From an uncultured Gammaproteobacteria bacterium (GTDB lineage Bacteria > Pseudomonadota > Gammaproteobacteria > DRLM01), in contig CAVSNY010000002.1 of assembly GCA_963729605.1 (NCBI GenBank), forward strand, positions 376,205-440,204: DNA of 64,000 nucleotides, read 5' to 3'. Of the stretch, positions 24,251-54,379 are shown piece after piece. The translations under genes were made by a program, and so were the position numbers. Every line of letters begins with the position of its first letter. Position 1 is the first letter of the stretch. The notes beneath the pieces are model-generated. The model saw nothing but the letters and a program-made list of their open reading frames with translations, did not search any database and was not told the origin of the DNA.

Positions 24251-24271
24251 ATGTTGTTGATGATCGATAAT
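24251..24271 (+). pseudogene. trpG: Disrupted 5' end of trpG (MLLMIDN), forming attL of island 1
   Basis: ATGTTGTTGATGATCGATAAT 4 bp after the trpE stop; matches the TrpG/PabA N-terminus MLLMIDNYDSF and then diverges. Confidence 0.85.
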
Positions 24272-24320
24272 CTGCATCGCGGTTTTTCTTGATCCGCCAA
24301 CGTCCAATGAGTAGACCATA

Positions 24321-24350
24321 AGGCCCCGATTCAAGGGGCTTTTGTTTGTT
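24321..24350 (+). terminator. Terminator-like hairpin just inside attL
   Basis: AGGCCCC-GATTCAA-GGGGCTT followed by TTGTTTGTT. Confidence 0.55.
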
Positions 24351-24386
24351 GACGTTCGATGCTGTTCATTGGCATCCAGAACAAAA

Positions 24387-24443
24387 GCGGGTATCGTTGC
24401 GGGTATCAAAACAACATATAAGCATCACAGGTTTGATACCCAC
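24387..24443. promoter_or_regulatory. Putative integrase arm-type sites, left end of island 1
   Basis: GCGGGTA-N5-GCGGGTA (24387-24405) plus inverted TACCCAC (24437-24443) abutting the int ATG. Confidence 0.65.
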
Positions 24444-25667
24444 ATGTTGACCGACACCAAAATCCGCAATGCCAAGCCTGGCGACAAACCGATTAAGCTT
24501 CCTGACAGTAACGGGCTGTATCTCGAAGTGCGGCCGACAGGAGCGAAGTTGTGGCGATACCGCTACCGCATCGCGGGCAAGGAGAATGTCTTTGCCGTAG
24601 GCGAATATCCTGCGATTGGATTGGCAGAGGCGAGGGCAATCCGAGCCGATGCACGGGAGTTGGTGAAACAAGGTATTCACCCCGCGCATGACCGCAAGGC
24701 ATGCATGGCGGCGCAAGTTGCAGAGAACGCCAACACCTTCAAGGCCGTTGCGGTGGAATGGGCCGAGCAACGCAAGAAGAAGTGGACGCCCTATTATGCC
24801 CGGCAAGTTGATCGCTTCCTGAATACCGATGTTTATCCCTACATCGGCACCTTGCCGATCCGCAACGTGACGGCGGCGCACCTGTTGGAAATCGTCAAGC
24901 GAATTGAGAAGCGCGGCGCGGAGACTGTTGCGTTGGTGGTCCGCCAGTGGTGTAGCGCAATCTTTCGCTATGCCGTGGCAACGCTGCGAGCAGACCACGA
25001 TCCGGCGGCTACTTTAAAGGGAGCAATTCACCGACCAAAGGTCGAACATCATAAGCCCCTATCCCGCGAACAGGTGGCAACCTTCGTGAAGGCGCTTGAT
25101 GATTATGGTGGCTATCGGACTACGGTTATTGCGCTACGTCTAATGTTGCTCACCTTTGTGCGCACTGTGGAGCTACGGGCGGCGCAGTGGGCGGAAATTG
25201 ATCTAGACCGGGCGGAGTGGCGCATACCGGCTGAGCGCATGAAGATGCGGGAGCCGCACTTTGTTCCCTTGTCGCATCAAGCGGTGGAATTGTTGCGGGA
25301 GCTAAACACGTACACCGGAGGGCGCGATTTTTTGTTTCCAAATTACCGCAGCCCTAGAGCCTGCATGACGCCAACTACGCTTAATCGGGCGCTGGAACGT
25401 ATGGGCTTTAATGGCAAGGACAGCATAGGCTTTTCTGCTCACGGCTTCCGTGCGACGGCATCGACCATCCTTAATGAAATGGGTTTTCGCCCTGATGTGA
25501 TCGAGCGCCAACTCGCCCATAAAGAACGAAATAAGGTGCGAGCGGCTTATAACCAAGCCGAGTACCTGGAAGAACGGCGGGCGATGATGCAGCAATGGGC
25601 GGACTACCTCAATAGGCTAGTGGTTGGTGCCGAGGTGATGCCTATTCGTGGAGCTAGAATAGCGTGA
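24444..25667 (+). CDS. P4-like tyrosine integrase with arm-binding domain
   Basis: MLTDTKIRNAKP...DSNGLYL N-terminus; catalytic R (VRTVE), HGFR, LAH, Y (AAYN). Confidence 0.95.
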   Translation: MLTDTKIRNAKPGDKPIKLPDSNGLYLEVRPTGAKLWRYRYRIAGKENVFAVGEYPAIGLAEARAIRADARELVKQGIHPAHDRKACMAAQVAENANTFKAVAVEWAEQRKKKWTPYYARQVDRFLNTDVYPYIGTLPIRNVTAAHLLEIVKRIEKRGAETVALVVRQWCSAIFRYAVATLRADHDPAATLKGAIHRPKVEHHKPLSREQVATFVKALDDYGGYRTTVIALRLMLLTFVRTVELRAAQWAEIDLDRAEWRIPAERMKMREPHFVPLSHQAVELLRELNTYTGGRDFLFPNYRSPRACMTPTTLNRALERMGFNGKDSIGFSAHGFRATASTILNEMGFRPDVIERQLAHKERNKVRAAYNQAEYLEERRAMMQQWADYLNRLVVGAEVMPIRGARIA

Positions 25668-26881
25668 CGGCGAGGTCCTCGGACTCTCTTGTTACTTATC
25701 TCCTCGATCGAACGGATCAGCACGTCGTCTGAGCTCCGGCCATAGAAGAACACCCGAGGAAGTGACACACAGAAGCGTGAGCACAGTTCCTTGCGCAAGG
25801 GCGACAGGAGATGCGTTAAGCCCAGACATGCTGCGATCCATGTTGTGCACGACGATGCCGCCGAACGCCAAGAGTGGAAAAGAGCAGTGCTGCCGCGCCA
25901 ATCCAGCGGCAAATCATTTGTGCGACGGGATATCGATTTGGTATCGCCGCGGGGACCCACAGCGGCGTGGCGAAGACCATACCAACCAGGAACCAGAACG
26001 TAGCGGCAGTGTAGCTTTCCGGTTCCACTGCACGAGAGAAGTCGCCGCCCAAAAGCGCTATGAACCCACCACATAGTGCGGTGGTGGTGGGTAGGAAGAA
26101 TCGGGCCTATAGTGGCATTTGCGCTGCTCTAACGATAATTGCCGTAGGGAAAAGCTGAACAGCAACCTCTAAAATGGACAATACAGCCTCATTAGCCACC
26201 AGAACAGCTGAGACGCCTTTCCCCGTTTCTGGCTTGAGCTCCCCCCAAGTCCCAATTTCCACAAGGCTTGAGGAACCCACATCACCCGCACTTGACAAGA
26301 TCGCTGTCGGTAAATATTCTGCGGTTTGACCCGCGCGAACCTTGGTTGACCCTGGGCAATCGGAGCCCAGAAGTGCCAAGAACAGCGCGGGTTTTATTTT
26401 GGTCGATGCACCGCAACTTCCCTTCATCCGCCCAGCGCTGTGCCGGGATCTTCCCGGTCCTGTCATACGTTGATAAGCATGCTCACTTCGACATGACTAA
26501 GCGCGGTCTTTAGCTACGCAATCATCATCACGGGATAGCCGCGAACAGGCTCAGGCGCATGAAGGCCAAGCGATCAGGAACGGTATTGGAGTGGATCCTG
26601 ATGCGGTTAGTATCTCTTTGTCGTCCCGGCCTGAATGGGCTCGTCGTCGCTCTCAATGTCCTTCATCGTGAAAACGCTCCGCTACTTCAGTTGATTTTCT
26701 GCTGCCTTCCTCGTAATTTGAACTTGCTAGTTTGTGCCCTATGGAACTGCTGTGCGCAAGTGCCCCGATAATTCCTCCAACATACGATGGCCAACCTTAA
26801 GAAGCAAAGGAGAAAGACAACTAGAGCGCAAGGAGTGCGCCGGTCTTCGGCATTGATACGCAAATAGGAGATATAGAGTTA

Positions 26882-27655
26882 GTGAGTGTCCAGAAAAAGA
26901 AAGCCAGAAAGTCTAGGAAGAATGCATTCGCCGAAGCTGCGAACATAGCGCCTCTTAAAAAAATTATTTTCGATTTTCCCGCTGATAGATCTGGCGAATT
27001 TGTGATCAGCTGTAGTCAGTTAACCCGAGTCGAACGTCAGATTCTCCGAGGGATGGTGGACCTTCATTACCAATTGTTCAGCGTTGTTTGGGTGACCAAC
27101 AAACTTCCCCATGGCGATTTATCATCCTTGATGGTGATTGCGTTTGATGCCGAGTTAAGAAAGGCTGATATTGAGGCTTGTATTGATCGTATATGGGGTA
27201 CATCCTTTGACGAAGTGCTGTCTCCAGAGACGGATAAAGCAGTCGCGCAGATTTTTAGCGATGTGGCTGCTCTTGCCGCGGCCAATGCGCTTCGTGCACT
27301 CACTTCGCTGGAAGCAAAGGATTACGAACGTTGCATCGCATGCCACACGCGCGCCGTAAGACTAGCTCAACTAATGGCAGAGGCAGTTCGGCGTATTGAT
27401 ATCTTTTTCGAAGCAGAGCCGCGAATCAGTTTCTCCAGGCTTGGAACGGCTGGCGCAAAAAAACGCCATGCACCAATGGCCGAGCTTCGCAAGTGGGCGG
27501 TGGAGCAATACCGCAAGGGAACGTGGCGGTCTGCGAATCAGGCAGCACATGTGTTAAAGGCAGCAATAATTGCTCACGGGCGCAGTATCAATGCCCATCT
27601 TTCAGAAGAAAATGCGCAGCGCACAATTGCGGATTGGTTCCGCGCGTCTGTTTAG
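26882..27655 (+). CDS. Hypothetical protein with a possible C-terminal DNA-binding helical domain
   Basis: 257-aa ORF preceded by AGGAGA, directly upstream of alpA; basic C-terminus. Confidence 0.6.
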   Translation: MSVQKKKARKSRKNAFAEAANIAPLKKIIFDFPADRSGEFVISCSQLTRVERQILRGMVDLHYQLFSVVWVTNKLPHGDLSSLMVIAFDAELRKADIEACIDRIWGTSFDEVLSPETDKAVAQIFSDVAALAAANALRALTSLEAKDYERCIACHTRAVRLAQLMAEAVRRIDIFFEAEPRISFSRLGTAGAKKRHAPMAELRKWAVEQYRKGTWRSANQAAHVLKAAIIAHGRSINAHLSEENAQRTIADWFRASV

Positions 27656-27774
27656 CTGCTACACCGACACGCCAAGCGGCTATGGTGGCTCAGCTATCAG
27701 CTTATCCGCATTTATCCACCGAGCACCCTAGAAATACGATGCAGCCGTCTCACATTGAACGAGGACGGACGCAA

Positions 27775-27999
27775 ATGAATCCCAAACTTCCCGAAACCGG
27801 CTATCTCCGGCTTTCTCAAATAATCGGTAATCCAAAAGCAAACCCGCCTATTCCCGCCCTGATACCGGTCGGCAAATCGACCTGGTGGGAGGGTGTTAAA
27901 ACCGGCCGTTATCCAGCGCCAACTAAAACGTTGGGCCGCAGAATTACGGCCTGGCACGTGGAGGACATCCGTGCCTTGATCGAGAGGAGCCGGCCATGA
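27775..27999 (+). CDS. AlpA-family regulator / recombination directionality factor
   Basis: GAGG RBS; MNPKLPETGYLRL.QI...IPVGKSTWW.GV..GRYP.P..LG.R.TAW..EDI. Confidence 0.88.
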   Translation: MNPKLPETGYLRLSQIIGNPKANPPIPALIPVGKSTWWEGVKTGRYPAPTKTLGRRITAWHVEDIRALIERSRP

Positions 28000-28499
28000 G
28001 TCTTCCGATTAATGACGCCTGCAGGCTCGCGGAGACTCAACACGGCTGGGCTATTCAGCGTATCCACACGAGAAAACACGGACGTACCCGCGAGGCGCTG
28101 GAAGCGTGGAAGGACATGCACTGGTTCACCTCAATTGAGGTCGACGTCCTTGCCGAGCTGTTGCTGACGACATCTGACGTAGAGACCGTAGCCGAGGCAT
28201 TGGCTGAGGCTAAAAACGTCGCGGCAATGCTTGGTCAAGCGCTGCATCCGCACGTTGAGGTGGCTATGAGAGGATTGCCGATGAGCGGAGAGACCTGCCC
28301 CGGCTTCACGGCGCCAACCCAGAGGCACGACACGGAGCAAGCGTTACCCTTTTTGACTTCGGCTTGGTCGGATGATCTGGCCATGCGGTTGGCACGTTTC
28401 GTCAGCGCGTTGGGCACCGGTCATGGGCTTGCGGGTTTCATGCTGTCGCAGGTGTGGAACCATTGCCAATGCTCCCGACGCGTGGGGTTTTTGTCATGA
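27996..28499 (+). CDS. Hypothetical protein
   Basis: ATGA overlaps with both neighbours (translational coupling). Confidence 0.55.
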   Translation: MSLPINDACRLAETQHGWAIQRIHTRKHGRTREALEAWKDMHWFTSIEVDVLAELLLTTSDVETVAEALAEAKNVAAMLGQALHPHVEVAMRGLPMSGETCPGFTAPTQRHDTEQALPFLTSAWSDDLAMRLARFVSALGTGHGLAGFMLSQVWNHCQCSRRVGFLS

Positions 28500-28975
28500 G
28501 TCGCAATAGACTTAGGACCAAGGGTCGCAAGGAAATCGGTTCTTTTGTTGCCTTGCCGCATGCCGTCTTAGAACACCCGAACTTCACAAAGCTGAGCCCC
28601 CGCGCCGTAAAGCTTCTGATAGACATCTACGCTCAATATCGCGGCAACAACAACGGCGACCTTTGCGCCGCCTTCACCATTATGAAAACACGTGGGTGGA
28701 CATCAAAGGATCAGTTGCAAAAAGCCAAAGACGAACTGCTGGAGGTGGGCTGGCTGATCGTCACCCGCCAAGGCGGCCGCAACAAGCCCACGCTGTACGC
28801 CGTTACGTTCCAACCCATCGACGAGTGCAAAGGCAAGCTGGACGTGAACCCCACAGCCGCCCCTCCCGGGAATTGGAAGAATTTCCCTTCCGAAGTTAAA
28901 AGCAGTGCCCCAAATACGGGGCAAGTTGGTTCTCATGGCGGGGCAATTGTAACCCAATTTAGAAAAACAGCATGA
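28496..28975 (+). CDS. Winged-HTH protein of phage-satellite/island type (possibly replication related)
   Basis: F.ALPH.VL..P.F..LS..A.KLL...Y.G.NNGDL...EL...G.L..TRQG pattern. Confidence 0.65.
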   Translation: MSRNRLRTKGRKEIGSFVALPHAVLEHPNFTKLSPRAVKLLIDIYAQYRGNNNGDLCAAFTIMKTRGWTSKDQLQKAKDELLEVGWLIVTRQGGRNKPTLYAVTFQPIDECKGKLDVNPTAAPPGNWKNFPSEVKSSAPNTGQVGSHGGAIVTQFRKTA

Positions 28976-29352
28976 TCATTAGCCCGCACGGCGGACCAGT
29001 CCTACCCTTTTTGGAGATTTCGCTGCCCCGTGCGACGGACCCCTTTATATATTTACCAAGGGGGTTACTGCTAGTGACATACACAGACGTAGTAATGACC
29101 AAGCATTTTGACCTTGCCTCGGAACATGGAAAAGAGAATCGGCTAGGAACGGACAGCAGCTGACATGAGCCCCTAACCTGTTATTAAATGTTATGGTAGA
29201 AAGCGACGCTACACGAGAATTCAACCTATCGCCAAAGCTCTTTGCTGTGGTTTAACGGCTTACAGGTATCACAGACAGATCAAAAGGAGACGTTATGACT
29301 TGGCGGCAAAGTCTGACTATCGGAGAAGTACGCGCGCGTGCGCGTGCGCGTC

Positions 29353-29565
29353 ATGGGGTTCGGGATGAGACGATCTAAACAGCGCTGCGGTGCTCGCACC
29401 CGCCGAGGCACCGAGTGCCTTGCCTCGGCACTCGCGAATGGCCGGTGTCGGCTGCACGGCGGATTATCGACCGGTCCCAAAACACTGACGGGCCGGCGGG
29501 CCGCACTAGCCAATTTAAAGCAATTCCGGAAATCAGCTGCGAACGATAATAAGGAGAATGGCTAA
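29353..29565 (+). CDS. HGGxSTG-domain protein
   Basis: RCGARTRRGTEC...NGRCRLHGGLSTGPKT..G. Confidence 0.8.
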   Translation: MGFGMRRSKQRCGARTRRGTECLASALANGRCRLHGGLSTGPKTLTGRRAALANLKQFRKSAANDNKENG

Positions 29566-30131
29566 TCGTTCAGTGTTCAGTGCCATAAGGCATATCTGAC
29601 CAAAAGGCGGAGCACCAAATCGACACCTCGCGTGCGCACATAGACGTGAAGGGAAGAGGACGGTTTCTGCATGAAGGCTTTTTCCAGGTTGTCTCCATTG
29701 GTCGCGTATCCCCAAAGCCTTTCGCGCGGGACATCAACCTTGAACGGAGAACTGAACCCCGCCGATATTCGCGAAGACTCATTTCATGAGGGGATGGAGT
29801 TCCAGGAGACTCCCGCGGAAGTGTAGCGATCAGTCAGACATGAAAGGTAAGTAAAACTCCCAGTTGCTGTAGAGGTATCTTTGCGGCACGCTTGTGTGGC
29901 GCACGGTCTTCCACTAACGGCATGGATGCCCCCGGGTAGCAGTCCCACTAGTATTAACACCCTGCTTGTGCGCCAGCTGTCAAACGGTAGTGACACATCC
30001 GTGGCACGAGCGAAAAAATCGCTGCGAGGGCGGTGACCGGCACCGGCTCCGTACTAAGGGGCCTCTGTAAATCAGCGTTATAGGTAGGGCGAAGAGTGAG
30101 GCGTTGCACACGAAATATTCGAGGAGAAAAT

Positions 30132-30704
30132 ATGAAAAATGGCCAGCTGTGTCTTGCATTTCTCTGCATTGCAATCTCATTCTGCGCACAGGCAGAAAAC
30201 AACCTTGATGGGTGGGGCTTTGGAATTGGCATCGGGTTCGAACTTTATAATAACCCGTATATAAAGACCGCATCAATGAATGGGGCAGAAAAAATAGTTT
30301 CAGTGAATGAAGAATATAAAAGCATACCAGCTCTTTGGTCAGCTGTTAATTGGACAGTTACTGCTCAGTGCAAACATGTACATATCCCGGCAAGATGGGT
30401 ATGCACGGAGTGGGTAAAGCCGGGTTGGTTCGTCGGCGCAAAGTTGATTGGACAAAATGGGGCTGGTCTAGACGGTGCCGCCGTGGGAATTCAATGGGCA
30501 TTTCTTCGACCTGCTGATGGCGGGGGTGCAGGAAAGCGAAAGAGCCTTAATCTTGGCGTAGGTATTGGCGTGACAAAGTTTCGTGAGCTGGCGTCCGGTA
30601 TTAAGGAGGGCCAAGCGCTCCCAAGTTATTATGACGATGTAAGATACAGGGATACAACTAAGCCAATGTTTCTCATTCTAGTTACAAAAGACATCGCCAT
30701 GTAA
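30132..30704 (+). CDS. Exported hypothetical protein
   Basis: GAGGAG RBS, signal peptide ending AQA, Gly/aromatic alternating strands (WGFGIGIGF, LNLGVGIG), lower GC. Confidence 0.7.
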   Translation: MKNGQLCLAFLCIAISFCAQAENNLDGWGFGIGIGFELYNNPYIKTASMNGAEKIVSVNEEYKSIPALWSAVNWTVTAQCKHVHIPARWVCTEWVKPGWFVGAKLIGQNGAGLDGAAVGIQWAFLRPADGGGAGKRKSLNLGVGIGVTKFRELASGIKEGQALPSYYDDVRYRDTTKPMFLILVTKDIAM

Positions 30705-30732
30705 AAACTTCTATAGCTCAGCTGCTCCTGAC

Positions 30733-30970
30733 TGTAATAACATCTGACAGCCACGCTGGCTCAAGCTGCCACGCTATGGCATCGGATTTCATATATGTCC
30801 GATCCAGTTGCTTTGCGAATGCTAGGGGTTCACTGTCGAATGTCTGCATGGGTGTTTGCCGTAGCAGTACTTTCCGGAATGCGTCTGCTCGATATTATTT
30901 CGCGTGGTCCACTTATCGATATCGGCCTGCGGTTCTTCCATATTGTGATATAGCTTGCGCCGCGCAATGC
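30733..30970 (-). pseudogene. IS481-family transposase 3' remnant
   Basis: RRKLYHNMEEPQADIDKW..RNNIEQTHSGKYCYGK / frameshift / PMQTF resembles the IS481 C-terminus; no N-terminal part. Confidence 0.6.
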
Positions 30971-31764
30971 ATGATGCGAGCTTCCAATTCGTGATGCGAT
31001 GCACGCCCCCGGCGCGATTGCCCGACCTGGTTGAAACGAGGAAGCTGCACCGCGTCCCTGGTATCGGCAAATGCAACGGCAATACCGCGGCTGGCGCAAT
31101 CTGTTCGATGACGGCGTGGGCTGTTGTTTCGGTCTTCCCCAGCGTAACACGAAGCTTTCAAGCGTGATGTTACGGGGGCGCAAGCGCAGCTTGATGTCGA
31201 GCGCAAGCGCGGCAGGCCGAAGCTGCGGAGAAGGCGGCGGTGATCCGGAATGTGGCGGCGCCCGCGACAGGCGCTCATCCCTACCTTATGAGCGAGGACA
31301 TCCAAGTCCACGGCGCGCGCGAGCGATCTTTATTCCATTCTTGAGCCCGTCTCTGTGAGAATCTTCTAGTCGCAGTGCGAGTACGGTGCGGGGATAACAC
31401 GGGTAAAATGCACGTGGAACTCACAACACAGATTCCTCACTATGGGAATGTGTCTTAGCCACTCATGTCTTGAGCGCTGCGCGTACTTGATGAACCTTGT
31501 TCGATATTAGGCATAGGATCTTAGCCGGATAGGGACGCTGGCATAAAAAGATAATGGGGTCGTCCAACGTTTGAGCCAACCGGCACATTGTGCGTGACGG
31601 AATCTGGCCCAGAATGAATGGCAAGACAATGACGGCACGACGCAATGTGTTCGGTTGCGCGAATTGTGACCGAGCGCCGTCGTGAACCCGGGAGCAATGT
31701 GTCAGGCCAAGTCTGTCAATCGCCCTCCGGGCAGGAATCTTCAGAGTAGAGGTGATCGGACATC

Positions 31765-33072
31765 GTGACAGTGGATCAGGACACCACTACGGTATCAGCA
31801 TCGCTGCCTTACCGTGGCGACAGTCCCGTCAGCCGAGAAGCGCTTTATGAGATTGTCTGGAACGCGCCCATGCTCAAGGTGGCGGCACGCTTCGGCGTCT
31901 CGTCGAGCTATATGGCCCGGGTCTGCACGCTGCTCAACGTACCACGGCCGGAGCGTGGCTATTGGGCAAAGCTGGCGGTGGGTAAAGCGCCCACGCAACC
32001 GCCACTCCCTGAGCCGCGTCACGGCGACGTGCTCGAGTGGCGACGCGACGGCACGTTTCCGAAACGTGCCCGTTCGCTGCCAAAACCTCCTGACCCAAGA
32101 CCTCAGCGGCAGCGCACAGCTAGACCCCCGCTGCCAGATCGACATCCGCTAGCGTATGGCGTCAAGCCGCTATTCGAGGCAGGTCGTTACTCTTGGGACG
32201 GCAACTATCTCAAGCCGGCCAAGCGACTGCTCGTCGACCTGATAGTTACCAAGACGGGGCTGGAAAAAGCAATCGCCTTTGCGAACGAATTGTTCCTAGC
32301 CCTAGAGGCGCAAGGCCACCGCGTGATCATTGCGCCGAACTCCGAGCACTTCCATCGCGCGACCGTCGATGAGCGTGAAAATCCCACGAAAGGCCACCAC
32401 CATAACAACCTGTGGTCGCCGATGCGGTGCACGGTAGTGTATATCGGGACCGTGGCGATCGGCCTCACCGTTATCGAGATGTCCGAGCAAGCGGAAGCCC
32501 GATACGTGAACGGCGAGTACGTTCGGCTGACCGACTACGTTTCCAAGCGAGGTGGTAGGTACACGCAGCGTCATGGCTGGACGAGTACCCACGAGTTCGC
32601 GACCGGGCGCCTCTGCCTCCAGGCCTACTCGCCGTACCCGCGTGCTGACTGGGTCCAGCAGTGGCGAGAGACGCCGGCCCGGGACCTTTCTAGCCGCATC
32701 CCCGCCATCATGCGTGAGCTGGAGAAGGCTACGATCGAGATCGCCCGACGCGTCGAAGAAGGTGAGCGCCGGGCGGAAATTGAGCGTAAGCGTTTGGCAG
32801 CTGAATACGAACGCTGGCGTCGCGAAGAGGAGGCGCGGCAGGCCGCAAAAGCTCTGCAGGACAGCAAAGACGAGCTGCTTCAGATCATCGATGCCTGGGC
32901 AGCTGCGAAGCGGCTCGAGGAGTTCTTCGCGGACGCCGAACGCCGAGCGCAGGATTTACCGGCCGAACATCGGGAGCGCGCACTGGAACGACTTCGACGC
33001 GCACGCGGCTTGATCGGTAGCACCGATGCGCTGGAGCGATTCGACGCATGGCGTGCGCCGCAGGAGCGCTAA
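31765..33072 (+). CDS. Hypothetical 435-aa protein (N-terminal HTH-like region, C-terminal coiled coil)
   Basis: GAGGTG RBS; SREALYE.VW..PM..VA..FGVS...C..L.VP.P.RGYWAK; E/R-rich C-terminus. Confidence 0.75.
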   Translation: MTVDQDTTTVSASLPYRGDSPVSREALYEIVWNAPMLKVAARFGVSSSYMARVCTLLNVPRPERGYWAKLAVGKAPTQPPLPEPRHGDVLEWRRDGTFPKRARSLPKPPDPRPQRQRTARPPLPDRHPLAYGVKPLFEAGRYSWDGNYLKPAKRLLVDLIVTKTGLEKAIAFANELFLALEAQGHRVIIAPNSEHFHRATVDERENPTKGHHHNNLWSPMRCTVVYIGTVAIGLTVIEMSEQAEARYVNGEYVRLTDYVSKRGGRYTQRHGWTSTHEFATGRLCLQAYSPYPRADWVQQWRETPARDLSSRIPAIMRELEKATIEIARRVEEGERRAEIERKRLAAEYERWRREEEARQAAKALQDSKDELLQIIDAWAAAKRLEEFFADAERRAQDLPAEHRERALERLRRARGLIGSTDALERFDAWRAPQER

Positions 33073-33631
33073 GGTTGGTAGGAATTCAGTCGAAGAATGT
33101 GCCGGCGCCTAGCCTCGATATCTGAGCGCACTGAATCACTCGCAAATCATTGAACAGCGCAAGAAGATCATTGCAGAGGCTGCAGAACAGCGCTATAGGG
33201 AATTAGCCGGCAGTGAAATCAAATACACATCAGCGGAACGGTGCATGAACTCAAGGAAGACACCCCCCATCAGCGTGAATTCCTTGATTTCTACCGTACT
33301 CCCAGAGGCAAGTCCACTTCCAAAGGCTCTCGCCGAAGCTAAGGACTCACTCGACGCTTGTCAGCAACATCAAGTTCATGAACTTTTATCCGTTCATTGA
33401 CATCGCGATGATCTCTCCGCGCCCGATTGGCCTTTCCGCGATGGCCTATGCGACCGCCCGGCGCTACGCCAAAGACTCGCGTTTTGCCTTTGGCACCCGG
33501 AGATTGCCTTGGGGGCTTTGCCAGCGCTATCTTCCTGCTGGCGCCATTCTCGGACCGGTCAATGTTGTCTGCGCACTGATCCTGGGTAAAGTGCACCACC
33601 ATGGGCACGGGGCATTCCCAGCGGCACGATC

Positions 33632-33765
33632 ATCACGCCACTGAACATCACCTAGTAGACCAAGGCAACCTATGCCGAGGGAGAGTTAACCGAGGCGCAA
33701 CTTGTAAGGAATTCTTACAAATTTGCCAGGAGGCTGCACAAGTAGGCGGCAAGTGAGCTATTCAA
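33632..33765 (+). pseudogene. Decayed rhuM N-terminal fragment retaining a 25-bp palindrome
   Basis: Reads ITPLNIT**TKATYAEGELTEA /frameshift/ TCKEFLQI, aligning with [31 protein letters not shown] of the ORF at 41628. Confidence 0.75.
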
Positions 33766-34477: not shown

Positions 34478-34509
34478 TCTGCCACCCCAAACCACAACAG
34501 GAATCACAC

Positions 34510-36085
<1,576 letters not shown>

Positions 36086-36096
<11 letters not shown>

Positions 36097-41510: not shown

Positions 41511-41627
41511 CGCGAACGCCCGACGCAGTCATCGAGTTATCAGCGCGTTTCAAAGCGTTGCTGGATAGTGACCCCGTTGAAGCCGTGAGGCAGGCACGAC
41601 AGATTCGGGGGCGCGAGGAGGCAACCT

Positions 41628-42631
41628 ATGAATAACATCGTGATTTTCGAGTCCGGCGAGCGGTCGGTTGACGTCCGGCTGGAGGGTGAAACCGTCTGGC
41701 TGACCCAGGCTCAGGTTGCCGAGCTTTTTTCGGTCAGTCCCCAAAACATCACCATGCACCTAAAAAATATATACGAAGAACAGGAGCTTGAAGAGGACTC
41801 AACCTGTAAGGATTTCTTACAGGTTCAAACCGAAGGCGACCGAGAGGTTAAAAGAAAGCGCAAGCACTACAACCTGGACGCCGTCATCTCGGTTGGCTAC
41901 CGCGTCAATTCCCGTCGCGCCACCCAGTTCCGTATCTGGGCCACCAACATCTTGAAACAATACTTGGTGGAAGGCTACACCCTCAACCAGCATCGCCTGC
42001 GGGAACGGGGCATCGAGTTCGAGCAGGCGCTGAGCTTGCTGTCGCGCACGCTGGCCAATCAGCAACTGGTCAGTGCCGAGGGCGAGGCGGTGCTGCATGT
42101 CATCAGCGAGTACGCCCGCAGCTGGAGCCTGTTGCAGGGTTACGACGAGCAGAGCTTGAGCGGCCAGACCGGCAGGCAGGACGGTATGCGGTCGCTGCAA
42201 CTGGACGAGGTGCTGGCGGCTATTAATCAGCTCAAGGCCGAGCTGATTCGCAAGGGCGAAGCCACCGCGCTGTTCGGCCAATTGCGCGGCGACGGCCTGG
42301 CCTCCGCGCTGGCTACCATCGAGCAGGGCTTCGGTGATGAGCTGTTCTACCCCAATGTGGCCAGCCGCGCGGCGCACCTGCTGTATTTCGTGATTAAGAA
42401 CCACCCACTGGCCGACGGCAACAAACGCACCGGCTCCTTCCTGTTCCTCTGGTATCTGCGCCTGAACCAGCACCTGCTGGCCCGGCCGGTGGAGCGTCTG
42501 ATCAATGACAACACGCTGGTGGCGCTGGCACTGCTGGTGGCCGAGAGCTTGCCCGGTCAAAAGGAACTGATGGTGCGGCTGGTGGAGCATTTCGTACTGC
42601 TAAAAGACACTGCCAACACAAGGGGCGACTG

Positions 42632-42632
<1 letters not shown>
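41628..42632 (+). CDS. RhuM-Fic/Doc fusion protein
   Basis: GAGGAGG RBS; [35 protein letters not shown]; Doc-type HPLADGNKR. Confidence 0.9.
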
Positions 42633-45844
<3,212 letters not shown>

Positions 45845-45874
45845 GAGTTTTGACATGACCGATGGCGTTTGATC

Positions 45875-48800
45875 ATGCAGTTCATCACCAACGGCCCCGA
45901 TATTCCGGATGCGCTCGTGCAAGCGCACGAGGAAGGTCGCGTGGTGTTTTTCTGCGGCGCGGGCATCTCTTATCCCGCCGGCCTGCCGGGCTTCAAGGGG
46001 CTGGTCGAAGAGATCTACCGGCTAAACGGCACCGCGCCCTGGGAGATCGAGCGCGAGGTATTGGACCGTGGGCAGTTCGACGCCACGCTAGACCTGCTGG
46101 AGAGGCGCCTGCCGGGTCAGCGTCTGGCCGTCCGCCGCAAACTTGCGCAAGCACTGAAACCGAAACTGCGTCGCAAGGGTGCCACCGATACGCACGCGGC
46201 CCTGCTGCGGCTTGGACGCAGCCGTGAGGGCGCGCTACGGCTGGTCACCACCAACTTTGACCGCGTGTTTCACGCGGCAGCCAAACGCATCGGTCAGGCA
46301 TTCCAGGCCTATGCCGCGCCGATGTTGCCGGTCCCGAAGAACAGCCGTTGGAACGGGCTGGTCTACCTTCACGGCCTACTGCCTGAAAAGGTCGACGACA
46401 CAACACTGAACCGCCTAGTGGTCACCAGCGGTGATTTCGGCCTAGCCTATTTAACCGAACGCTGGGCTGCCCGCTTCGTGAGTGAGCTGTTCCGCAACTA
46501 CGTCGTCTGCTTCGTCGGCTACAGCATTAACGATCCGGTGTTGCGCTACATGATGGATGCGCTGGCCGCCGATCGGATGCTCGGCGAAATCACACCGCAG
46601 GCATGGGCGTTGGGCGACTGCGAGCCAGGACAGGAGCACCGCAAGACAATCGAGTGGAAAGCGAAGGGTGTCACGCCCATTCTTTACCATGTGTCTGGGA
46701 GCCTTGGGCATTCGGTATTGCACCAAACATTGCAAGCATGGGGAGACACCTACCGCGACGGCGTTCTGGGTAAGGAGCGCATCGTCGTCAGTTACGCTCT
46801 GGCGCGGCCATCGGCAAGTACGCAGCAGGACAATTTCGTTGGTCGGATGTTATGGGCCATATCGGACAAATCGGGGCTGCCAGCTAAACGTTTTGCCGAC
46901 TTTAACCCTGTTCCGTCGCTGGACTGGTTACTCGAAGCCTTCTCAGATGAACGCTTTGGGCACAGCGATCTGGCCCGGTTTGGCGTGCCGCCGCGGGACG
47001 AGACCGACGCCAAATTGCGCTTCTGCCTGATTCACCGGCCTCCGCCTTATGACCACGCGCCACCGATGCTGCTAGCTTTCGGTGACATCGTCGGCAGCCG
47101 GTGGGACGACGTGATGTTGCACCTGGCGCGCTGGCTCACGCGACATTTGGATGACCCGAGGCTGATTCTCTGGATTGCGCAACGCGGCGGCCGGTTGCAC
47201 GATCGCTGGCTGTGGCTGATCGAAAGCGAGCTGGATCGTTTGGCGTCGTTGGAGCGTAGCGACAAGACGGCCGAACTTGACGACATCCGCTCACACGCGC
47301 CCAGGGCCATCCCTGGTCCCTTGATGCGCACCCTGTGGCGTCTGCTGCTCAGCGGCCGGGTAAAATCATCGTCGCACGATCGTGATCTCTATCGATGGAA
47401 AGATCGGCTAAAGCGGGAGGGGCTGACCACTACGCTGCGCTTGGAGTTACGCGAACTGCTCGCGCCACAGGTGGCCTTGAAGAAGCCGTTACGCTGGGGT
47501 GAGGAAGAAGAAAGCGCGGACGAACCCACGCGCTTGCGGCGACTCGTGGATTGGGAGCTGGTGCTCGGAGCCGATCATGTGCATTCGGCCCGGCGCACCT
47601 TTGCCCACGAGCAATGGGCATCTGCCCTGCCGAAACTACTGGAGGACTTCCAGCAACTGCTGCGTGATGCGTTGGACTTGTTGCGCGAGCTGGGCGAGGC
47701 TGATGACCGCAACGACCGATCGCACTGGGATATGCCATCGATTACGCCGCACTGGCAGAACCGGGGGTTCCGCGACTGGGTGAGCCTGATCGAATTGCTG
47801 CGTGATGCGTGGCTGTCGCTTCGTGACAGCGACAGTGCGCGCGCGACGCGGATTGCCCAGATCTGGTTTACGTTGCCGTATCCCACCTTCAAACGCTTGG
47901 CGCTGTTTGCCGCCAGCCAAGATGACTGCATCCCGCCCGAACAGTGGGTGGATTGGCTATTGGCCGATGGCACATGGTGGCTGTGGTCCACCGATGCGAG
48001 ACGGGAGGTATTCAGACTGATCGTTCTGCAGGGGCGGCAGCTGGCAGCGACTGCTCAGCAACGTTTGGAAGCCGCTATCTTGGCCGGCCCGCCGCGCGAG
48101 ATGTACCGGGATGATCTGGAATCAGAGCAGTGGCAAGGCCTGGTGGCCCGCTCCGTCTGGCTGCATCTGGCCAAACTGAGCGCATCGGGCCTCGCTCTGG
48201 GAGGGCCGGCAGCGGCACGCTTGGCGGAACTGTCCAATGCCTACCCAAAATGGCAATTGGCGGTTAACGAGCGTGACGAGTTTTCCCACTGGATGAGCGG
48301 CACCGGTGATCCAGACTATAAAGACAGCCGGGATGTCGACATCGCACCTCGAAAGCGGCGTGAACTTGTTGAATGGCTCAGAAAGCCATCGCCCGAACCG
48401 CGTTCCTTCCACGAAGACACTTGGCGCGACGTCTGTCGCACCCGATTTTTTCACAGCCTGTATGCACTGTGCGATTTAGCGCGTGAAGGCGTATGGCCGG
48501 AAGGACGATGGCGAGAGGCTCTGCAGGCTTGGAGAGAGGAAGGCATGGTGCTGCGATCGTGGAGCTATGCCGCGCCGCTGGTGCAGACCATGCCCGACAC
48601 CGTCATCCAGGAAATTGCTCACGGTGTGACATTGTGGATCGAAGCCGTGTCCAAGTCGATCAACCAGCACGAGACCATCCTGTTGGATCTTTGCCGCCGC
48701 GTGCTGGCGCTGCCACTCGAAGCGGACACCGGCATGACTCGCAATGGCGAGCCGATTGACCAGCCTGTTACCGAAGCCATCAATCATCCGATTGGACATA

Positions 48801-49696
48801 TTTCGCAGGCGCTGATTAACCTTTGGTTCAAAGGTAACCCGAACGACAACGATTTGCTCCCAGCCCACATCAAACCTTTCTTCACTGTGCTGTGCGACGT
48901 ACGGGTAGACCGATTCCGCCACGGCCGTGTGCTGCTCGGCTGGACTTTGATCGCGTTCTTCCGGGTGGATCGAACTTGGACCGAGCAATACCTTTTGCCA
49001 CTGTTCAGTTGGAGCAACCCGGCCGAAGCAAAAGCAGTGTGGGAAGGCTTCCTGTGGTCCCCCCGCCCCTATCAGCCTTTGCTGACGGCTTTCAAACGCC
49101 AGTTCCTGGAAAGCGCACATCACTACGCCGATCTTGGTGAGCATCGCCAGCAGTTTGCAGCCTTCCTGACGTATGCAGCGTTAGGCCCGACCGAGGGATA
49201 CACTCTGGATGAGTTCCGATCCGCAATTGGTGCGCTGCCTCAAGAAGGGTTGGAGGAATCCGCTCAGGCGCTTTGCCAGGCACTTGAAGGAGCCGCCGAT
49301 CAGCGCGAGGACTATTGGAAGAATCGCGTCTGGCCGTTCTGGCTACAGGTCTGGCCCAAGTCCCGAGATTTGGCCACCCAGCGAATTGCAAAATCCTTGA
49401 CCCAGCTAGCTATTGCTGCCCGAGGCGAATTCCCGGCGGCCTTGATTGCAGTGCAGGGCTGGTTGCAACCGATTGAGCACCCGAATTACGTCGTACATCT
49501 GCTGCAAGAATCGGGCTTGTGCACGCGATTCCCGGCGGAAGCACTGCACCTACTAGATGCGGTGATTTCCGACCAACAATGGGCGCCTCGGGAGTTGAGG
49601 GAATGTTTGGACGAGATCGAGAAAGCAGCACCACGATTTGAACAAGATGCCCGTTACCAACGTCTTCGAAATTATTTGCGGAGACAAGGAATTTGA
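45875..49696 (+). CDS. dsr1: Defence-associated sirtuin, DSR1-like (SIR2 domain plus long helical C-terminus)
   Basis: MQFITNGPDIP..., FCGAGIS, TTNFD, YLHG, FVGYS..D; ~1270 aa. Confidence 0.85.
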   Translation: MQFITNGPDIPDALVQAHEEGRVVFFCGAGISYPAGLPGFKGLVEEIYRLNGTAPWEIEREVLDRGQFDATLDLLERRLPGQRLAVRRKLAQALKPKLRRKGATDTHAALLRLGRSREGALRLVTTNFDRVFHAAAKRIGQAFQAYAAPMLPVPKNSRWNGLVYLHGLLPEKVDDTTLNRLVVTSGDFGLAYLTERWAARFVSELFRNYVVCFVGYSINDPVLRYMMDALAADRMLGEITPQAWALGDCEPGQEHRKTIEWKAKGVTPILYHVSGSLGHSVLHQTLQAWGDTYRDGVLGKERIVVSYALARPSASTQQDNFVGRMLWAISDKSGLPAKRFADFNPVPSLDWLLEAFSDERFGHSDLARFGVPPRDETDAKLRFCLIHRPPPYDHAPPMLLAFGDIVGSRWDDVMLHLARWLTRHLDDPRLILWIAQRGGRLHDRWLWLIESELDRLASLERSDKTAELDDIRSHAPRAIPGPLMRTLWRLLLSGRVKSSSHDRDLYRWKDRLKREGLTTTLRLELRELLAPQVALKKPLRWGEEEESADEPTRLRRLVDWELVLGADHVHSARRTFAHEQWASALPKLLEDFQQLLRDALDLLRELGEADDRNDRSHWDMPSITPHWQNRGFRDWVSLIELLRDAWLSLRDSDSARATRIAQIWFTLPYPTFKRLALFAASQDDCIPPEQWVDWLLADGTWWLWSTDARREVFRLIVLQGRQLAATAQQRLEAAILAGPPREMYRDDLESEQWQGLVARSVWLHLAKLSASGLALGGPAAARLAELSNAYPKWQLAVNERDEFSHWMSGTGDPDYKDSRDVDIAPRKRRELVEWLRKPSPEPRSFHEDTWRDVCRTRFFHSLYALCDLAREGVWPEGRWREALQAWREEGMVLRSWSYAAPLVQTMPDTVIQEIAHGVTLWIEAVSKSINQHETILLDLCRRVLALPLEADTGMTRNGEPIDQPVTEAINHPIGHISQALINLWFKGNPNDNDLLPAHIKPFFTVLCDVRVDRFRHGRVLLGWTLIAFFRVDRTWTEQYLLPLFSWSNPAEAKAVWEGFLWSPRPYQPLLTAFKRQFLESAHHYADLGEHRQQFAAFLTYAALGPTEGYTLDEFRSAIGALPQEGLEESAQALCQALEGAADQREDYWKNRVWPFWLQVWPKSRDLATQRIAKSLTQLAIAARGEFPAALIAVQGWLQPIEHPNYVVHLLQESGLCTRFPAEALHLLDAVISDQQWAPRELRECLDEIEKAAPRFEQDARYQRLRNYLRRQGI

Positions 49697-49792
49697 GGTC
49701 AATGCGGCGGATTTCCTCATCGACCTCAGGGAGTACTTACCGCCCTGTGAGTCAGTTGTGCAGACGTCAACCATCCGCTACCAATAACAACC

Positions 49793-49820
49793 CCCAACCG
49801 TTCTTGGTTGGGATTTTCTT
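49793..49820 (+). terminator. Putative terminator after dsr1
   Basis: CCCAACC-GTTCTT-GGTTGGG followed by ATTTTCTT. Confidence 0.55.
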
Positions 49821-49913
49821 GCTCTGGTTTATAGCGCGCCCAATTTAGGTGACAATAGCTTGGCTTCTGGCATTCGGTTCCAAGACCGTCAGCGACAAGT
49901 ATCGGCGGAAAAA

Positions 49914-49932
49914 GCGGGTACGAGAGCGGGTA
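49914..49932. promoter_or_regulatory. Putative integrase arm-type sites, right end of island 1
   Basis: GCGGGTA-N5-GCGGGTA preceded by AAAA, same as at 24387-24405. Confidence 0.7.
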
Positions 49933-49986
49933 TTAAAGCAGAAGTGACAGGTAATGTTCCTTAAGGAACAATAGGATGTGCTTATA

Positions 49987-50016
49987 ATGCTGCTGATGAT
50001 CGATAACTACGATTAG
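49987..50016 (+). pseudogene. trpG: Regenerated trpG 5' end (MLLMIDNYD*), forming attR of island 1 and attL of the ICE
   Basis: ATGCTGCTGATGATCGATAACTACGATTAG, preceded by AGGA. Confidence 0.85.
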
Positions 50017-54354: not shown

Positions 54355-54379
54355 GACGAACACCGGAGTAACGGGCTGG

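What the first reader, a model, noticed from the sequence alone, without database searches (positions are those of the whole stretch)
24251..50016. Two different mobile elements integrated in tandem into the first codons of trpG, with the gene start re-supplied
Seen: after trpE the sequence reads MLLMIDN and breaks off. 25.7 kb later ATGCTGCTGATGATCGATAACTACGAT (MLLMIDNYD, synonymous TTG to CTG changes, upstream AGGA) reappears and is cut again by TAG just before a second integrase. The two integrases share close blocks (GYRTTVIALRLMLLTFVRTVELR vs GYRATVIALRLMALTYVRTAELR). Known: P4-like integrases usually target tRNA/ssrA 3' ends, and some target genes such as guaA or the dusA 5' end; ICEclc-class ICEs typically use tRNA genes. 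Inference: a trpG-specific integrase clade shared by a satellite-like island and an ICE, making trpG a stacking hotspot. I do not recall this target being described, but could not search.
Basis: partly seen in the sequence, partly recalled or inferred. Interest (0 to 1): 0.8.

Follow-up and report, generated by a model that had tools for sequence, protein, structure and literature searches.

The report
Two mobile elements stacked in trpG start
A defence-gene island and a conjugative element have each inserted into the first codons of the tryptophan gene trpG, each bringing a replacement gene start, using related integrases that dock at this site in many bacteria.

Summary
trpE (22732-24246) is followed by a truncated trpG start (24251). 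A 25.7-kb integrase/defence island follows, then a second trpG start (49987-50016), then a PFGI-1/ICEclc-class ICE that runs off the contig. A third copy of the start, fused to intact trpG-trpD-trpC, lies on contig C6. It is preceded by the same GTGTATAAT-N3-GTGTATAAC pair that sits beside int2; this pair occurs only twice in the genome. Same-genus genomes have the empty site.

Integrase relatives carry the same junction: 16 of 77 scored genome loci, all in one tree group, while 42 others sit at tRNA/tmRNA genes. Of 73 scorable metagenome relatives of int2, 68 match a junction pattern and 5 show variants read by eye. Polymorphisms bound the island-type crossover to ATGATCGA.

Tandem arrays recur elsewhere. 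The ICE's middle is unassembled, so the C2-C6 link is inferred, and several transfer genes are frameshifted. "Satellite-like" is not supported for the island.

The mechanism is of a known kind (dusA, prfC; ICESh95 at pabA). I found no paper on trpG as a target. This scan had already noted trpG-start islands in four other genomes. New here are the ICE subclade and the mixed stack.

The parts
22732..24246 (+). trpE (anthranilate synthase component I), 504 aa, intact. In same-genus genomes its stop lies 4 nt before the trpG ATG.
   Evidence: Pfam Chorismate_bind + Anth_synt_I_N; empty sites in G001-G003
24251..24292 (+). attL: host-derived trpG start (MLLMIDN) running into the island arm, with a stop after 13 codons. 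The core ATGATCGATAA is at 24260-24270.
24320..24342 (+). Terminator-like hairpin plus T-run in the island's int-proximal arm, placed to end the trpE transcript.
   Evidence: consensus scan only
24382..24447 (+). GGGTATC repeats, two direct and one inverted. They are candidate arm-type integrase sites of island 1; the same motif recurs in the distal arm at 49911-49940.
   Evidence: Sequence; conserved in the trpG-proximal arms of related islands
24444..25667 (+). int1, a P4-type tyrosine integrase. The ORF opens at 24342, but homology starts at the ATG at 24444.
   Evidence: 70-78% identical relatives at trpG starts
25668..34140 (.). Island 1 region of small and medium ORFs without family assignment. 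The one weak hit is to replication-initiation O-like/DnaD-like families, for 28454-28975.
34145..49696 (+). Island 1 defence cargo. It comprises wHTH; type I RM hsdM (34510-36096), hsdS (to 37333) and hsdR (42632-45844). Between hsdS and hsdR lie the HEC-01 pair (37330-39146), M78/RmrA-like + DUF4411 (39143-40788), Abi_C (40785-41510) and RhuM/Fic PDC-S23 (41628-42632). Dsr1 follows at 45869-49696.
49793..49812 (+). Terminator-like hairpin after dsr1.
49905..49986 (+). Distal arm of island 1: GGGTAC/GGGTAT repeats, the palindrome GTTCCTTAAGGAAC, and AGGA before the re-supplied ATG.
   Evidence: homologous arms upstream of trpG in 8 other genomes
49987..50016 (+). Middle junction: an island-supplied trpG start (MLLMIDNYD) cut by TAG in the ICE arm. 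The core ATGATCGATAA is at 49996-50006.
   Evidence: contigs of other samples match the window only from 49991 rightwards
50124..50169 (+). GTGTATAAT-N3-GTGTATAAC plus an inverted GTTATACAC. These are candidate arm-type sites of int2 and overlap a promoter-like TAGACC-17-TATAAT.
   Evidence: the composite motif occurs only here and 55-67 nt before trpG on C6
50170..51438 (+). int2, a P4-type tyrosine integrase of the ICE. The ORF opens at 50131.
52507..54363 (-). traI, a MobH relaxase of the PFGI-1 class, intact.
   Evidence: TIGR03760 249.7 bits (cut-off 161.4) and NF041494
54554..55479 (+). PrlF/YhaV toxin-antitoxin pair inside the ICE.
55894..64000 (-). ICE transfer genes: TraG_N, TIGR03755, TIGR03756, TIGR03757, RadC, DsbA-like, TraC_PFL_4706. 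TraG_N, TIGR03755, TIGR03756 and TraC are split over frames. The region runs off the contig.

Best explanation
Two unrelated mobile elements sit head to tail in one attachment site, the first codons of trpG. Each was put there by its own P4-type tyrosine integrase, and the two integrases come from one related group. The crossover lies in the codons Met-Ile-Asp: within ATGATCGA for the island type, and within ATGATCGATAA at most for the ICE type. Each element's int-proximal arm truncates the old trpG start. The island's arm also carries a terminator-like hairpin behind trpE. Each element's distal arm carries a ribosome-binding site and a synonymous or slightly altered copy of the first codons (MLLMIDN for the island, MAKLLMIDN for the ICE). 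The gene next to the last element is therefore complete again. Element 1 (about 25.7 kb) is an integrase island whose recognisable cargo is anti-phage defence. Element 2 is a PFGI-1/ICEclc-class ICE with heavy-metal-resistance cargo. It continues from the end of contig C2, through an unassembled middle, to contig C6, where it ends at intact trpG-trpD-trpC. Shown: the three junctions, the empty site in congeners, the association of the integrase clade with the site, and the ICE's left boundary. Inferred: the continuity from C2 to C6, the order of the two insertions, the source of trpGDC transcription, and present-day mobility.
For: The junctions and integrases are. It is the only close trpG-type GATase found by tblastn; the only other hit is 22% identical (E 1e-5) on C7. 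The empty site, trpE stop + 4 nt + ATGTTGCTGATGATCGAYAAYTACGATTC, is present in all 3 same-genus genomes searched. GTGTATAAT-N3-GTGTATAAC occurs exactly twice in 3.48 Mb: beside int2 and 55-67 nt before trpG on C6. C6 467248-505528 holds metal-resistance genes, then LysR, AlpA and ParA, and no integrase. In complete genome G383 the homologous LysR/255-aa/AlpA/ParA genes lie within about 5 kb upstream of trpG, behind the same kind of arm, and an 85% identical int2 homologue lies next to trpE. Genome scan: of 80 loci, 3 short ones were dropped. Of the 77 scored, 16 have the trpG-start junction, 42 have a tRNA/tmRNA gene directly upstream, 16 have nothing recognised, and 3 have no upstream DNA. 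All trpG rows form one group (SH-aLRT 87) inside a starred set of 22. Complete island-type elements are bounded by the two half-sites in G031 (8.05 kb) and G035 (38.5 kb), and as a 2 x 7.4 kb tandem in G039. The flanking polymorphisms place the crossover within ATGATCGA. Metagenome scan with int2 gave 80 loci at 66-98% identity. Of 73 with at least 200 nt upstream, 68 match the start motif and the other 5 show variant junctions read by eye. Of 51 with at least 2.5 kb upstream, trpE ends within 300 nt in 22 and within 3 kb in 34. A MobH traI lies within 3 kb downstream in 26 of 80. Contigs of 3 of the 4 laid runs, each run from a different study, match the window from 49991 rightwards with 0-1 differences. 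Depth to the left is near zero, and two of those contigs continue 660-715 nt into unlike DNA.
Against: The ICE is not contiguous in the assembly. C2 ends inside traC. TraD (TIGR03743) and TIGR03752 were not found anywhere in the 94%-complete genome. No overlap joins the C2 and C6 ends. In G383 the related ICE is split by a roughly 200-kb inversion, so a rearrangement here cannot be excluded. The group uniting the two integrase types has SH-aLRT 87, which is not starred, on a quick tree. The ICE type sits on a long branch (0.94), and the sample was chosen by similarity to the queries. No convincing sigma-70 promoter was found in the 450 nt before trpG on C6, so how trpGDC is transcribed is open. 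Four transfer genes are frameshifted, so the ICE may no longer move.
Confidence: 0.85

Rival explanations
1. The two integrase types acquired trpG specificity independently (convergence) and do not descend from one trpG-specific ancestor.
For: They are only 46% identical. The branch joining them has SH-aLRT 87, not starred. The ICE type is a long branch (0.94), which can be misplaced. Their element arms differ: nnAGCATCG against CTACGATT.
Against: In the ML tree every trpG-associated row falls in one group, and no tRNA-associated row is inside it. Int2 is 45-50% identical to the 13 island-type loci L013-L025, against 35-41% to the tRNA/tmRNA-associated loci. Both types use the same crossover segment of 11 bp or less.
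Confidence: 0.2
2. The trpG-proximal DNA on C6 is not the far end of the window's ICE. It would then be a separate, third element, or the ICE has been rearranged or partly deleted so that C2 and C6 are not adjacent.
For: The contig break, the missing T4CP and TIGR03752, the inversion splitting the related ICE in G383, and the frameshifted transfer genes that suggest decay.
Against: The int2-type arm motif pair occurs only at these two places. No integrase was found in C6 467248-505528. Gene order at the C6 end matches the trpG-proximal end of the G383 ICE. In other samples the ICE continues more than 10 kb past the window end (record 22).
Confidence: 0.15
3. The tandem arrangement is an assembly chimera of two strains that each carry one element at the same site.
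For: The genome has 7 contigs at 94% completeness and may be a metagenome bin. The ICE region differs from circulating copies by many single-base indels.
Against: The shared exact repeat between junctions is only 11-13 nt, too short to mislead an assembler. Tandem arrays at this site occur independently elsewhere. G039 has 2 x 7.4 kb. ICE-arm DNA lies directly before int2-type junctions in L163, L176, L189 and L209, which is 4 of 51 loci.
Confidence: 0.03
4. The trpE-trpG boundary is a generic recombination hotspot, and the integrases are passengers with no specificity for it.
For: In Pseudomonas aeruginosa the R/F pyocin or prophage cluster sits between trpE and trpG (passages read in PMC7344871 and PMC5467263). 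The passages do not say whether an integrase accompanies it.
Against: The junction is at the same base positions in dozens of loci from different orders. It follows integrase phylogeny, not host phylogeny. It also occurs where trpG is not next to trpE.
Confidence: 0.02

Closest known systems
dusA-associated integrases and their islands/prophages (Farrugia et al. 2015, PMC4482086; abstract and outline read)
   Same: A dedicated tyrosine-integrase group targets one conserved site in the 5' end of a housekeeping protein gene. The integrase is the only universal gene of otherwise diverse islands. The element is proposed to restore the gene's 5' end.
   Different: The target gene differs (trpG, not dusA). 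This integrase group is P4-type with the Arm-DNA-bind_3 domain. Here the site also separates trpG-trpD-trpC from trpE. Excision has not been shown for these elements.
SXT/R391 ICEs at the 5' end of prfC (statement read in PMC7251087 and PMC6947025; the original paper was not read)
   Same: An ICE inserts in the first codons of an essential gene and supplies a new start, giving a hybrid protein. Here the ICE-supplied start changes MLLMIDN to MAKLLMIDN.
   Different: The conjugation family differs (PFGI-1/ICEclc class with a MobH relaxase, against SXT/R391). The integrase and the target also differ.
ICESh95 of Shewanella sp. Sh95, integrated at pabA (passages read in PMC6541609, PMC10011109, PMC7251087, PMC6947025)
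   Same: An ICE integrates in the glutamine-amidotransferase gene pabA, a paralogue of trpG. From my own knowledge (recalled, from no call), the first codons of pabA are similar to those of trpG.
   Different: ICESh95 has an SXT/R391 backbone. The passages I could read do not say which part of pabA is used or give the att sequence. The 2016 description is not held, so I could not test whether its integrase belongs to this group.
ICEclc / PFGI-1 / PAGI-2 family ICEs at tRNA-Gly (passages read in PMC10732049)
   Same: The same relaxase and mating-pair-formation gene families are present (TIGR03760, TIGR03744, TIGR03755-57), and there is a ParA end opposite the integrase end.
   Different: Those elements use the 3' 18 bp of tRNA-Gly genes. 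This one uses the trpG start with a different integrase.
P4-type integrases of satellites and islands at tRNA/tmRNA genes (phage P4 int, 42% identical)
   Same: The three-domain architecture, the arm-type repeats on both attP arms, and the integrase gene next to attL.
   Different: The target is the start of a protein-coding gene, so the element must carry translation signals rather than a tRNA 3' end.

Membership tests
P4-type (Arm-DNA-bind_3/DUF4102) tyrosine integrases | N-terminal arm-DNA-binding domain, central SAM-like domain and C-terminal catalytic domain | tested here: met
   PF13356, PF22022 and PF00589 are all above cut-off in both proteins. NF007246 matches at full length but below its cut-off. 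Int1 is 42% identical to P4 Int.
P4-type (Arm-DNA-bind_3/DUF4102) tyrosine integrases | Catalytic R...HxxR...Y residues | tested here: inconclusive
   Conserved VRT.ELR, HGFR and a late Y are visible in the pairwise alignment. I did not map them onto a solved structure.
P4-type (Arm-DNA-bind_3/DUF4102) tyrosine integrases | Integration at the 3' end of a tRNA or tmRNA gene (usual, not obligatory) | tested here: not met
   No tRNA lies at either junction. 42 of 77 scored relatives do sit at tRNA/tmRNA genes, but none of these is inside the trpG group.
PFGI-1 / ICEclc-class ICE | MobH-type relaxase TraI of the PFGI-1 class | tested here: met
   TIGR03760 249.7 bits against cut-off 161.4; NF041494 332 bits against 200.
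PFGI-1 / ICEclc-class ICE | Family-specific mating-pair-formation genes (TraC_PFL_4706, TIGR03755, TIGR03756, TIGR03757, TraG_N) | tested here: met
   All are present. However, TraC, TIGR03755, TIGR03756 and TraG_N are split over frames.
PFGI-1 / ICEclc-class ICE | Coupling protein (TraD-type T4CP) and the remaining T4SS genes | tested here: not met
   TIGR03743 and TIGR03752 were not found in the own genome, which is 94.5% complete. The contig ends inside traC, so this is probably an assembly gap and not proof of loss.
PFGI-1 / ICEclc-class ICE | Integration into a tRNA-Gly (or other tRNA) gene by an IntB13-type integrase | tested here: not met
   The junction is the trpG start. I did not compare the integrase with IntB13.
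Integrase groups dedicated to the 5' end of one protein gene (dusA type) | The same site in the same gene across many hosts, following integrase phylogeny | tested here: met
   16 of 77 scored genome loci carry the junction. Of 73 scorable metagenome loci, 68 match the pattern and 5 show variants read by eye. The trpG rows form one tree group.
Integrase groups dedicated to the 5' end of one protein gene (dusA type) | The element restores the interrupted gene start | tested here: met
   Element-derived arms with an SD-like motif plus ATG and the first codons stand before an intact trpG in G000 and in all 12 other genomes where the trpG locus of an integrase carrier was found. One of these (L130) shows only 5 nt upstream.
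Integrase groups dedicated to the 5' end of one protein gene (dusA type) | Excision as a circle with restoration of attB | not testable with these tools
   The only indirect evidence is empty sites in congeners and near-identical ICE ends joined to other DNA in other samples.
Phage satellites (P4-like, PICI, PICMI) | A replication module (primase/helicase), AlpA-type regulator, and capsid-redirection or packaging genes | tested here: not met
   There are no such families in 25.7-34.1 kb with Pfam, NCBIfam or PHROGs. The one weak hit is to replication-initiation O-like (E 5e-5).

The most novel reading that the evidence does not exclude
The first codons of trpG are a widely used landing pad shared by a whole integrase lineage that has spread onto very different vehicles: minimal islands, defence islands and PFGI-1-class ICEs. 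Occupying it gives the element control over tryptophan synthesis. Insertion cuts trpG-trpD-trpC off from trpE and its transcription. It replaces that transcription with signals in the element's distal arm, where the integrase's own arm-type sites (GTGTATAAT, containing a perfect TATAAT) lie 55-67 nt before the new start. Integrase occupancy or excision state could therefore set trpGDC expression. The conserved pyocin/prophage cluster between trpE and trpG in Pseudomonas aeruginosa might be a fossil of the same site use.
Probability: 0.12. Interest if true: 0.75.

Novelty: new variant of a known kind. Interest (0 to 1): 0.5.

Why it matters
It adds a well-defined protein-gene attachment site to the short list that includes dusA, prfC and guaA. 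The crossover is located to 8-11 bases, the arm motifs are identified, and there are dozens of natural examples. The data show that one integrase lineage has been exchanged between minimal or defence islands and a major ICE family that is usually described at tRNA genes. Tools that delimit ICEclc-type elements by tRNA-Gly repeats would therefore miss these. Because the site sits inside the trp operon, every insertion rewires how trpG-trpD-trpC is expressed, and this can be tested directly. The tandem arrays make the site a natural place to study competition and co-excision between unrelated elements that share an attB.

Tried and rejected
- Looking for the ICE middle in the genome: TIGR03743 (TraD) and TIGR03752 gave nothing, and blastn of the C2 and C6 ICE parts found no overlap or second copy.
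- Dating the ICE-derived part of trpG from nucleotide identity to congeners: divergence is even along the gene, so this is uninformative.
- Shared genes among island-type elements: tblastx found only the integrase and one 48-codon patch at 27784-27927. Pfam gave no family for that patch.
- Promoter for trpGDC on C6: one weak hit 520 nt upstream, no more than the shuffles give.
- Deposited phages: none is 60% or more identical to int1. The best is 51% (Yersinia phages YeP4-6).
- Searching metagenome records for trpG through locus handles was not possible. Complete int2-type ICEs in long metagenome contigs could therefore not be delimited.
- Literature: I used 8 full-text searches. Searches combined trpG, pabA, anthranilate synthase or trpE with integrase, attB, ICE, genomic island or ICEclc. 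One search located the TIGER/Islander papers, and followed up ICESh95. None gave a paper naming trpG as an integrase target. The TIGER 2020 paper and the ICESh95 2016 paper are not held. The TIGER/Islander and Integrase-On-Demand texts do not mention trpG or pabA; I did not open their supplements or database, which may list such islands.
Full report
OBSERVATION.

The window is G000:C2:376205-440204, and its last base is the end of contig C2. trpE (22732-24246) ends with TAA. Four bases later ATGTTGTTGATGATCGATAA begins (24251). The frame then leaves trpG (MLLMIDN-LHRGFS-stop, 24251-24292).

At 49987 ATGCTGCTGATGATCGATAACTACGATTAG encodes MLLMIDNYD-stop, with AGGA upstream. These are the only two matches in the window at up to 2 mismatches, and none was expected in 100 shuffles.

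Directly after each copy lies a P4-type integrase gene with Arm-DNA-bind_3, Phage_int_M and Phage_integrase domains. The two proteins are 46% identical over 409 residues. Homology to relatives starts at the ATGs at 24444 and 50170, so these are the likely starts.

THE THIRD COPY.

A search of the whole genome found one more copy, with 2 mismatches, on contig C6 at 467247 on the minus strand. It reads ATGGCTAAGCTGCTAATGATCGATAATTATGAT... It opens an intact 200-aa class-I glutamine amidotransferase, followed by anthranilate phosphoribosyltransferase and indole-3-glycerol-phosphate synthase. It is the only close trpG-type gene in the assembly; tblastn found just one other hit, 22% identical (E 1e-5), on C7.

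In all three same-genus genomes searched, trpE and trpG are uninterrupted. Their sites read trpE stop, 4 nt, then ATGTTGCTGATGATCGAYAAYTACGATTC. That is the empty attB.

WHAT THE TWO ELEMENTS ARE.

Element 1 spans core to core, 24260 to 49996, about 25.7 kb. It contains:
- int1;
- about 8 kb of ORFs with no family in Pfam, NCBIfam or PHROGs, apart from one weak replication-initiator hit;
- a defence block.

The defence block holds a type I restriction-modification system with several candidate systems inserted between hsdS and hsdR. These are an HEC-01 pair, an M78/RmrA-like protein with DUF4411, Abi_C, and a RhuM/Fic PDC-S23 protein. Dsr1 follows the block. I found no satellite hallmarks, so "satellite-like" is not supported.

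Element 2 starts at 50007. It has:
- int2;
- a MobH relaxase of the PFGI-1 class, above cut-off;
- a PrlF/YhaV pair;
- the family-specific transfer genes TraG_N, TIGR03755, TIGR03756, TIGR03757 and TraC_PFL_4706.

It is therefore an ICE of the ICEclc/PFGI-1 kind.

Four of its transfer genes are split over reading frames. TIGR03755 is in three pieces, and TIGR03756, TraG_N and TraC are each in two.

IS C6 THE OTHER END OF THIS ICE?

The middle of the ICE is not in the assembly. No TraD-type coupling protein or TIGR03752 was found, and no sequence overlap joins the contig ends. The link therefore rests on three indirect results.

First, the composite motif GTGTATAAT-N3-GTGTATAAC occurs exactly twice in 3.48 Mb. 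One copy is at window 50124 beside int2. The other is on C6, 55-67 nt before the trpG start. This is the pattern expected of arm-type integrase sites on the two arms of one attP.

Second, C6 467248-505528 contains czc, cus, cop, P-type ATPase and MerR genes, then LysR, AlpA and ParA up to the contig end, and no integrase.

Third, complete genome G383 has an 85% identical int2 homologue next to trpE. Its trpG is preceded by the same kind of arm, and within about 5 kb by homologues of exactly those LysR, 255-aa, AlpA and ParA genes; ParA is up to 86% identical in tblastx. There the two ICE ends are about 200 kb apart and inverted relative to each other, so an inversion has split that ICE. This is a warning that the same could apply here.

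ASSOCIATION OF THE INTEGRASES WITH THE SITE.

A scan of one genome per species, using the alignment of the two integrases, kept the best 80 of 585 relatives. Three short ones were dropped (L035, L080, L089). Of the 77 scored:
- 16 have a trpG-start junction 100-300 nt before the integrase gene;
- 42 have a tRNA or tmRNA gene there;
- 16 have nothing I could recognise;
- 3 have no upstream DNA.

The 16 are every locus at least 60% identical to int1 that has upstream DNA (14 loci), plus two that are 79% identical to int2. They come from Xanthomonas, Rhodanobacter, Dyella, Pseudoxanthomonas, Thiobacillus, Uliginosibacterium, Aquabacterium and several uncultured Beta- and Gammaproteobacteria.

In a quick maximum-likelihood tree all trpG-associated rows form one group, with SH-aLRT 87. 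The tool stars branches at 95 or more, so this one is unstarred. The group also holds one row without upstream DNA. It lies inside a starred set of 22. The int2 type is a starred trio on a long branch. The sample was chosen by similarity to the queries, so this is not an unbiased survey.

A metagenome scan with int2 gave 80 loci at 66-98% identity. Of 73 with at least 200 nt upstream and a full N-terminus, 68 match a start-motif pattern. The other five show ...GAYAACTAYGATTGA after a variant or extended start when read by eye.

Of 51 loci with at least 2.5 kb upstream, trpE ends:
- within 300 nt of the integrase gene in 22;
- at 301-1000 nt in 9;
- at 1-3 kb in 3;
- not within 3 kb in 17.

In most of these 17 the flank looks like a trpG with its own upstream region. 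A MobH traI lies within the 3-kb downstream flank in 26 of 80. Many of these loci are copies of the same ICE in different samples, so they are not independent events.

ANATOMY OF THE SITE.

Complete island-type elements are bounded by the two half-sites in three genomes: G031 (8.05 kb), G035 (38.5 kb) and G039 (two 7.4-kb copies in tandem). In these, the host and element versions differ just before ATGATCGA (CTG against CTA or CTC) and just after it (GAA or GAT against GAC). The strand exchange of the int1 type must therefore fall within ATGATCGA.

For the int2 type, the window's own junctions bound the exchange to ATGATCGATAA.

The int-proximal arms differ between types. The int1 type has nnAGCATCG. 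The int2 type has CTACGATT, which mimics the next trpG codons.

The distal arms of island-type elements are conserved across eight genomes. They carry GGGTAT(C) repeats and AATAGGATGCA-like SD-bearing sequence before ATGCTGCTN.

The distal arms of ICE-type elements share GTGTATA-type repeats and AAGAGGTT. In three of four genomes they encode a start extended by two residues: MAKLL, MSRIL or MPRIL.

A terminator-like hairpin follows attL at 24320-24342. A promoter-like TAGACC-17-TATAAT precedes int2 and overlaps its arm repeats. No convincing promoter was found before trpG on C6.

INDEPENDENT SUPPORT FROM OTHER SAMPLES.

Twenty public runs from ten studies hold about half of the words of 49700-50300. 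I laid four of them, each from a different study. In three (X1, X2, X8) a contig matches the window from exactly 49991 rightwards, with 0-1 differences over 600-930 nt. Depth to the left is near zero, and two of those contigs continue 660-715 nt into DNA unlike island 1. A near-identical ICE end is therefore joined to other DNA at the same core elsewhere. This fixes the ICE's left boundary and argues for recent mobility of this ICE lineage.

The int-traI segment is almost identical to those contigs: 2 differences and no gaps in 3064 nt. The transfer-gene region is different. One 4.6-kb contig there shows 152 substitutions and 45 gaps. The same single-base indels appear in all four runs at 56719, 56727, 56923 and 58541.

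The window's copy is therefore the odd one. Either its transfer genes are decaying, or the consensus is poor in a strain-variable region close to a contig end. I cannot tell which without the source reads.

STACKING.

Besides this window and G039, ICE-arm DNA homologous to the C6 arm lies directly before an int2-type junction in L163, L176, L189 and L209, which is 4 of 51 loci. L160 shows what looks like an island-type arm before an int2-type junction (by eye only).

Tandem occupation is thus recurrent, though a minority state. Either order of insertion would give the arrangement seen here, so the order is open.

COMPARISON WITH WHAT IS KNOWN.

The logic is that of the dusA-associated integrases (abstract read) and of SXT/R391 at prfC (statements read).

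The nearest target in print is pabA, a paralogue of trpG, used by the hybrid SXT/R391 element ICESh95. The passages available do not give the position in pabA or the att sequence, and the original paper is not held.

ICEclc-family elements are described at tRNA-Gly. I used eight full-text searches: six keyword combinations on the target genes, one to locate the TIGER/Islander papers, and one to follow up ICESh95. None found a paper naming trpG as an integrase target. Island databases may list such elements without comment, and I could not query them.

This scan had already recorded trpG-start (or amidotransferase-start) islands in four other genomes: e1-4298935, e1-3801269, e1-4083462 and e1-2216539. 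The site itself is therefore not new to the scan.

What this window adds:
- a second, ICE-borne integrase subclade at the same core;
- a mixed island-plus-ICE stack;
- base-level bounds on the crossover;
- evidence from other samples for the ICE boundary.

VERDICT.

The finding is real and correctly read in its main points. It is a new variant of a known kind of system and of moderate interest.

Noticed in passing
window 37330-42632: Four defence-type modules are inserted between hsdS and hsdR of one type I RM system. They are the HEC-01 candidate pair, an M78/RmrA-like protein plus DUF4411, Abi_C, and a RhuM/Fic PDC-S23 protein. This looks like a small hotspot within an operon.
   Followed up: partly
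window 49956-49969: The perfect palindrome GTTCCTTAAGGAAC lies in the island's distal arm, 18 nt before the re-supplied ATG. I did not examine whether the two are related.
   Followed up: no
window 63316-63363: The window has 48 nt in traC that contigs of all four laid runs lack (a joint 63315 to 63364 in X1, X2, X11 and X8). It is an in-frame insertion or duplication specific to this copy.
   Followed up: no
G383:C1 about 1,477,000-1,688,000 (loci L225, L228, L230, L233, L234): In this complete genome the int2-type ICE is split. trpE-attL-int lie on the minus strand at 1.686 Mb. ParA-AlpA-LysR-arm-trpG lie on the plus strand at 1.482 Mb. This is consistent with a roughly 200-kb inversion with one breakpoint inside the ICE.
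   Followed up: partly
window 27784-27927: A 48-codon patch, 71-73% identical by tblastx, is the only sequence besides the integrase that island 1 shares with the small islands of G031 and G039. It has no Pfam family and could be a small conserved regulator or excision factor.
   Followed up: partly
window 51462-52094 (-): This LysR-type ORF has only the substrate-binding domain and no HTH. It is probably a truncated regulator next to int2; full-length LysR genes sit at the other ICE end on C6.
   Followed up: no
window 9596-19754: This stretch has a lower G+C content (0.53-0.60, against about 0.64 around it) upstream of the rpe-gph-trpE genes. It may be another acquired region; I did not examine it.
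   Followed up: no
loci L040, L028, L048: These are the nearest outgroups of the trpG-associated integrases. None has a tRNA or a trpG start upstream. In L040 and L048 the flank ends with the 3' end of a protein-coding ORF, which suggests further protein-gene targets in this lineage.
   Followed up: partly
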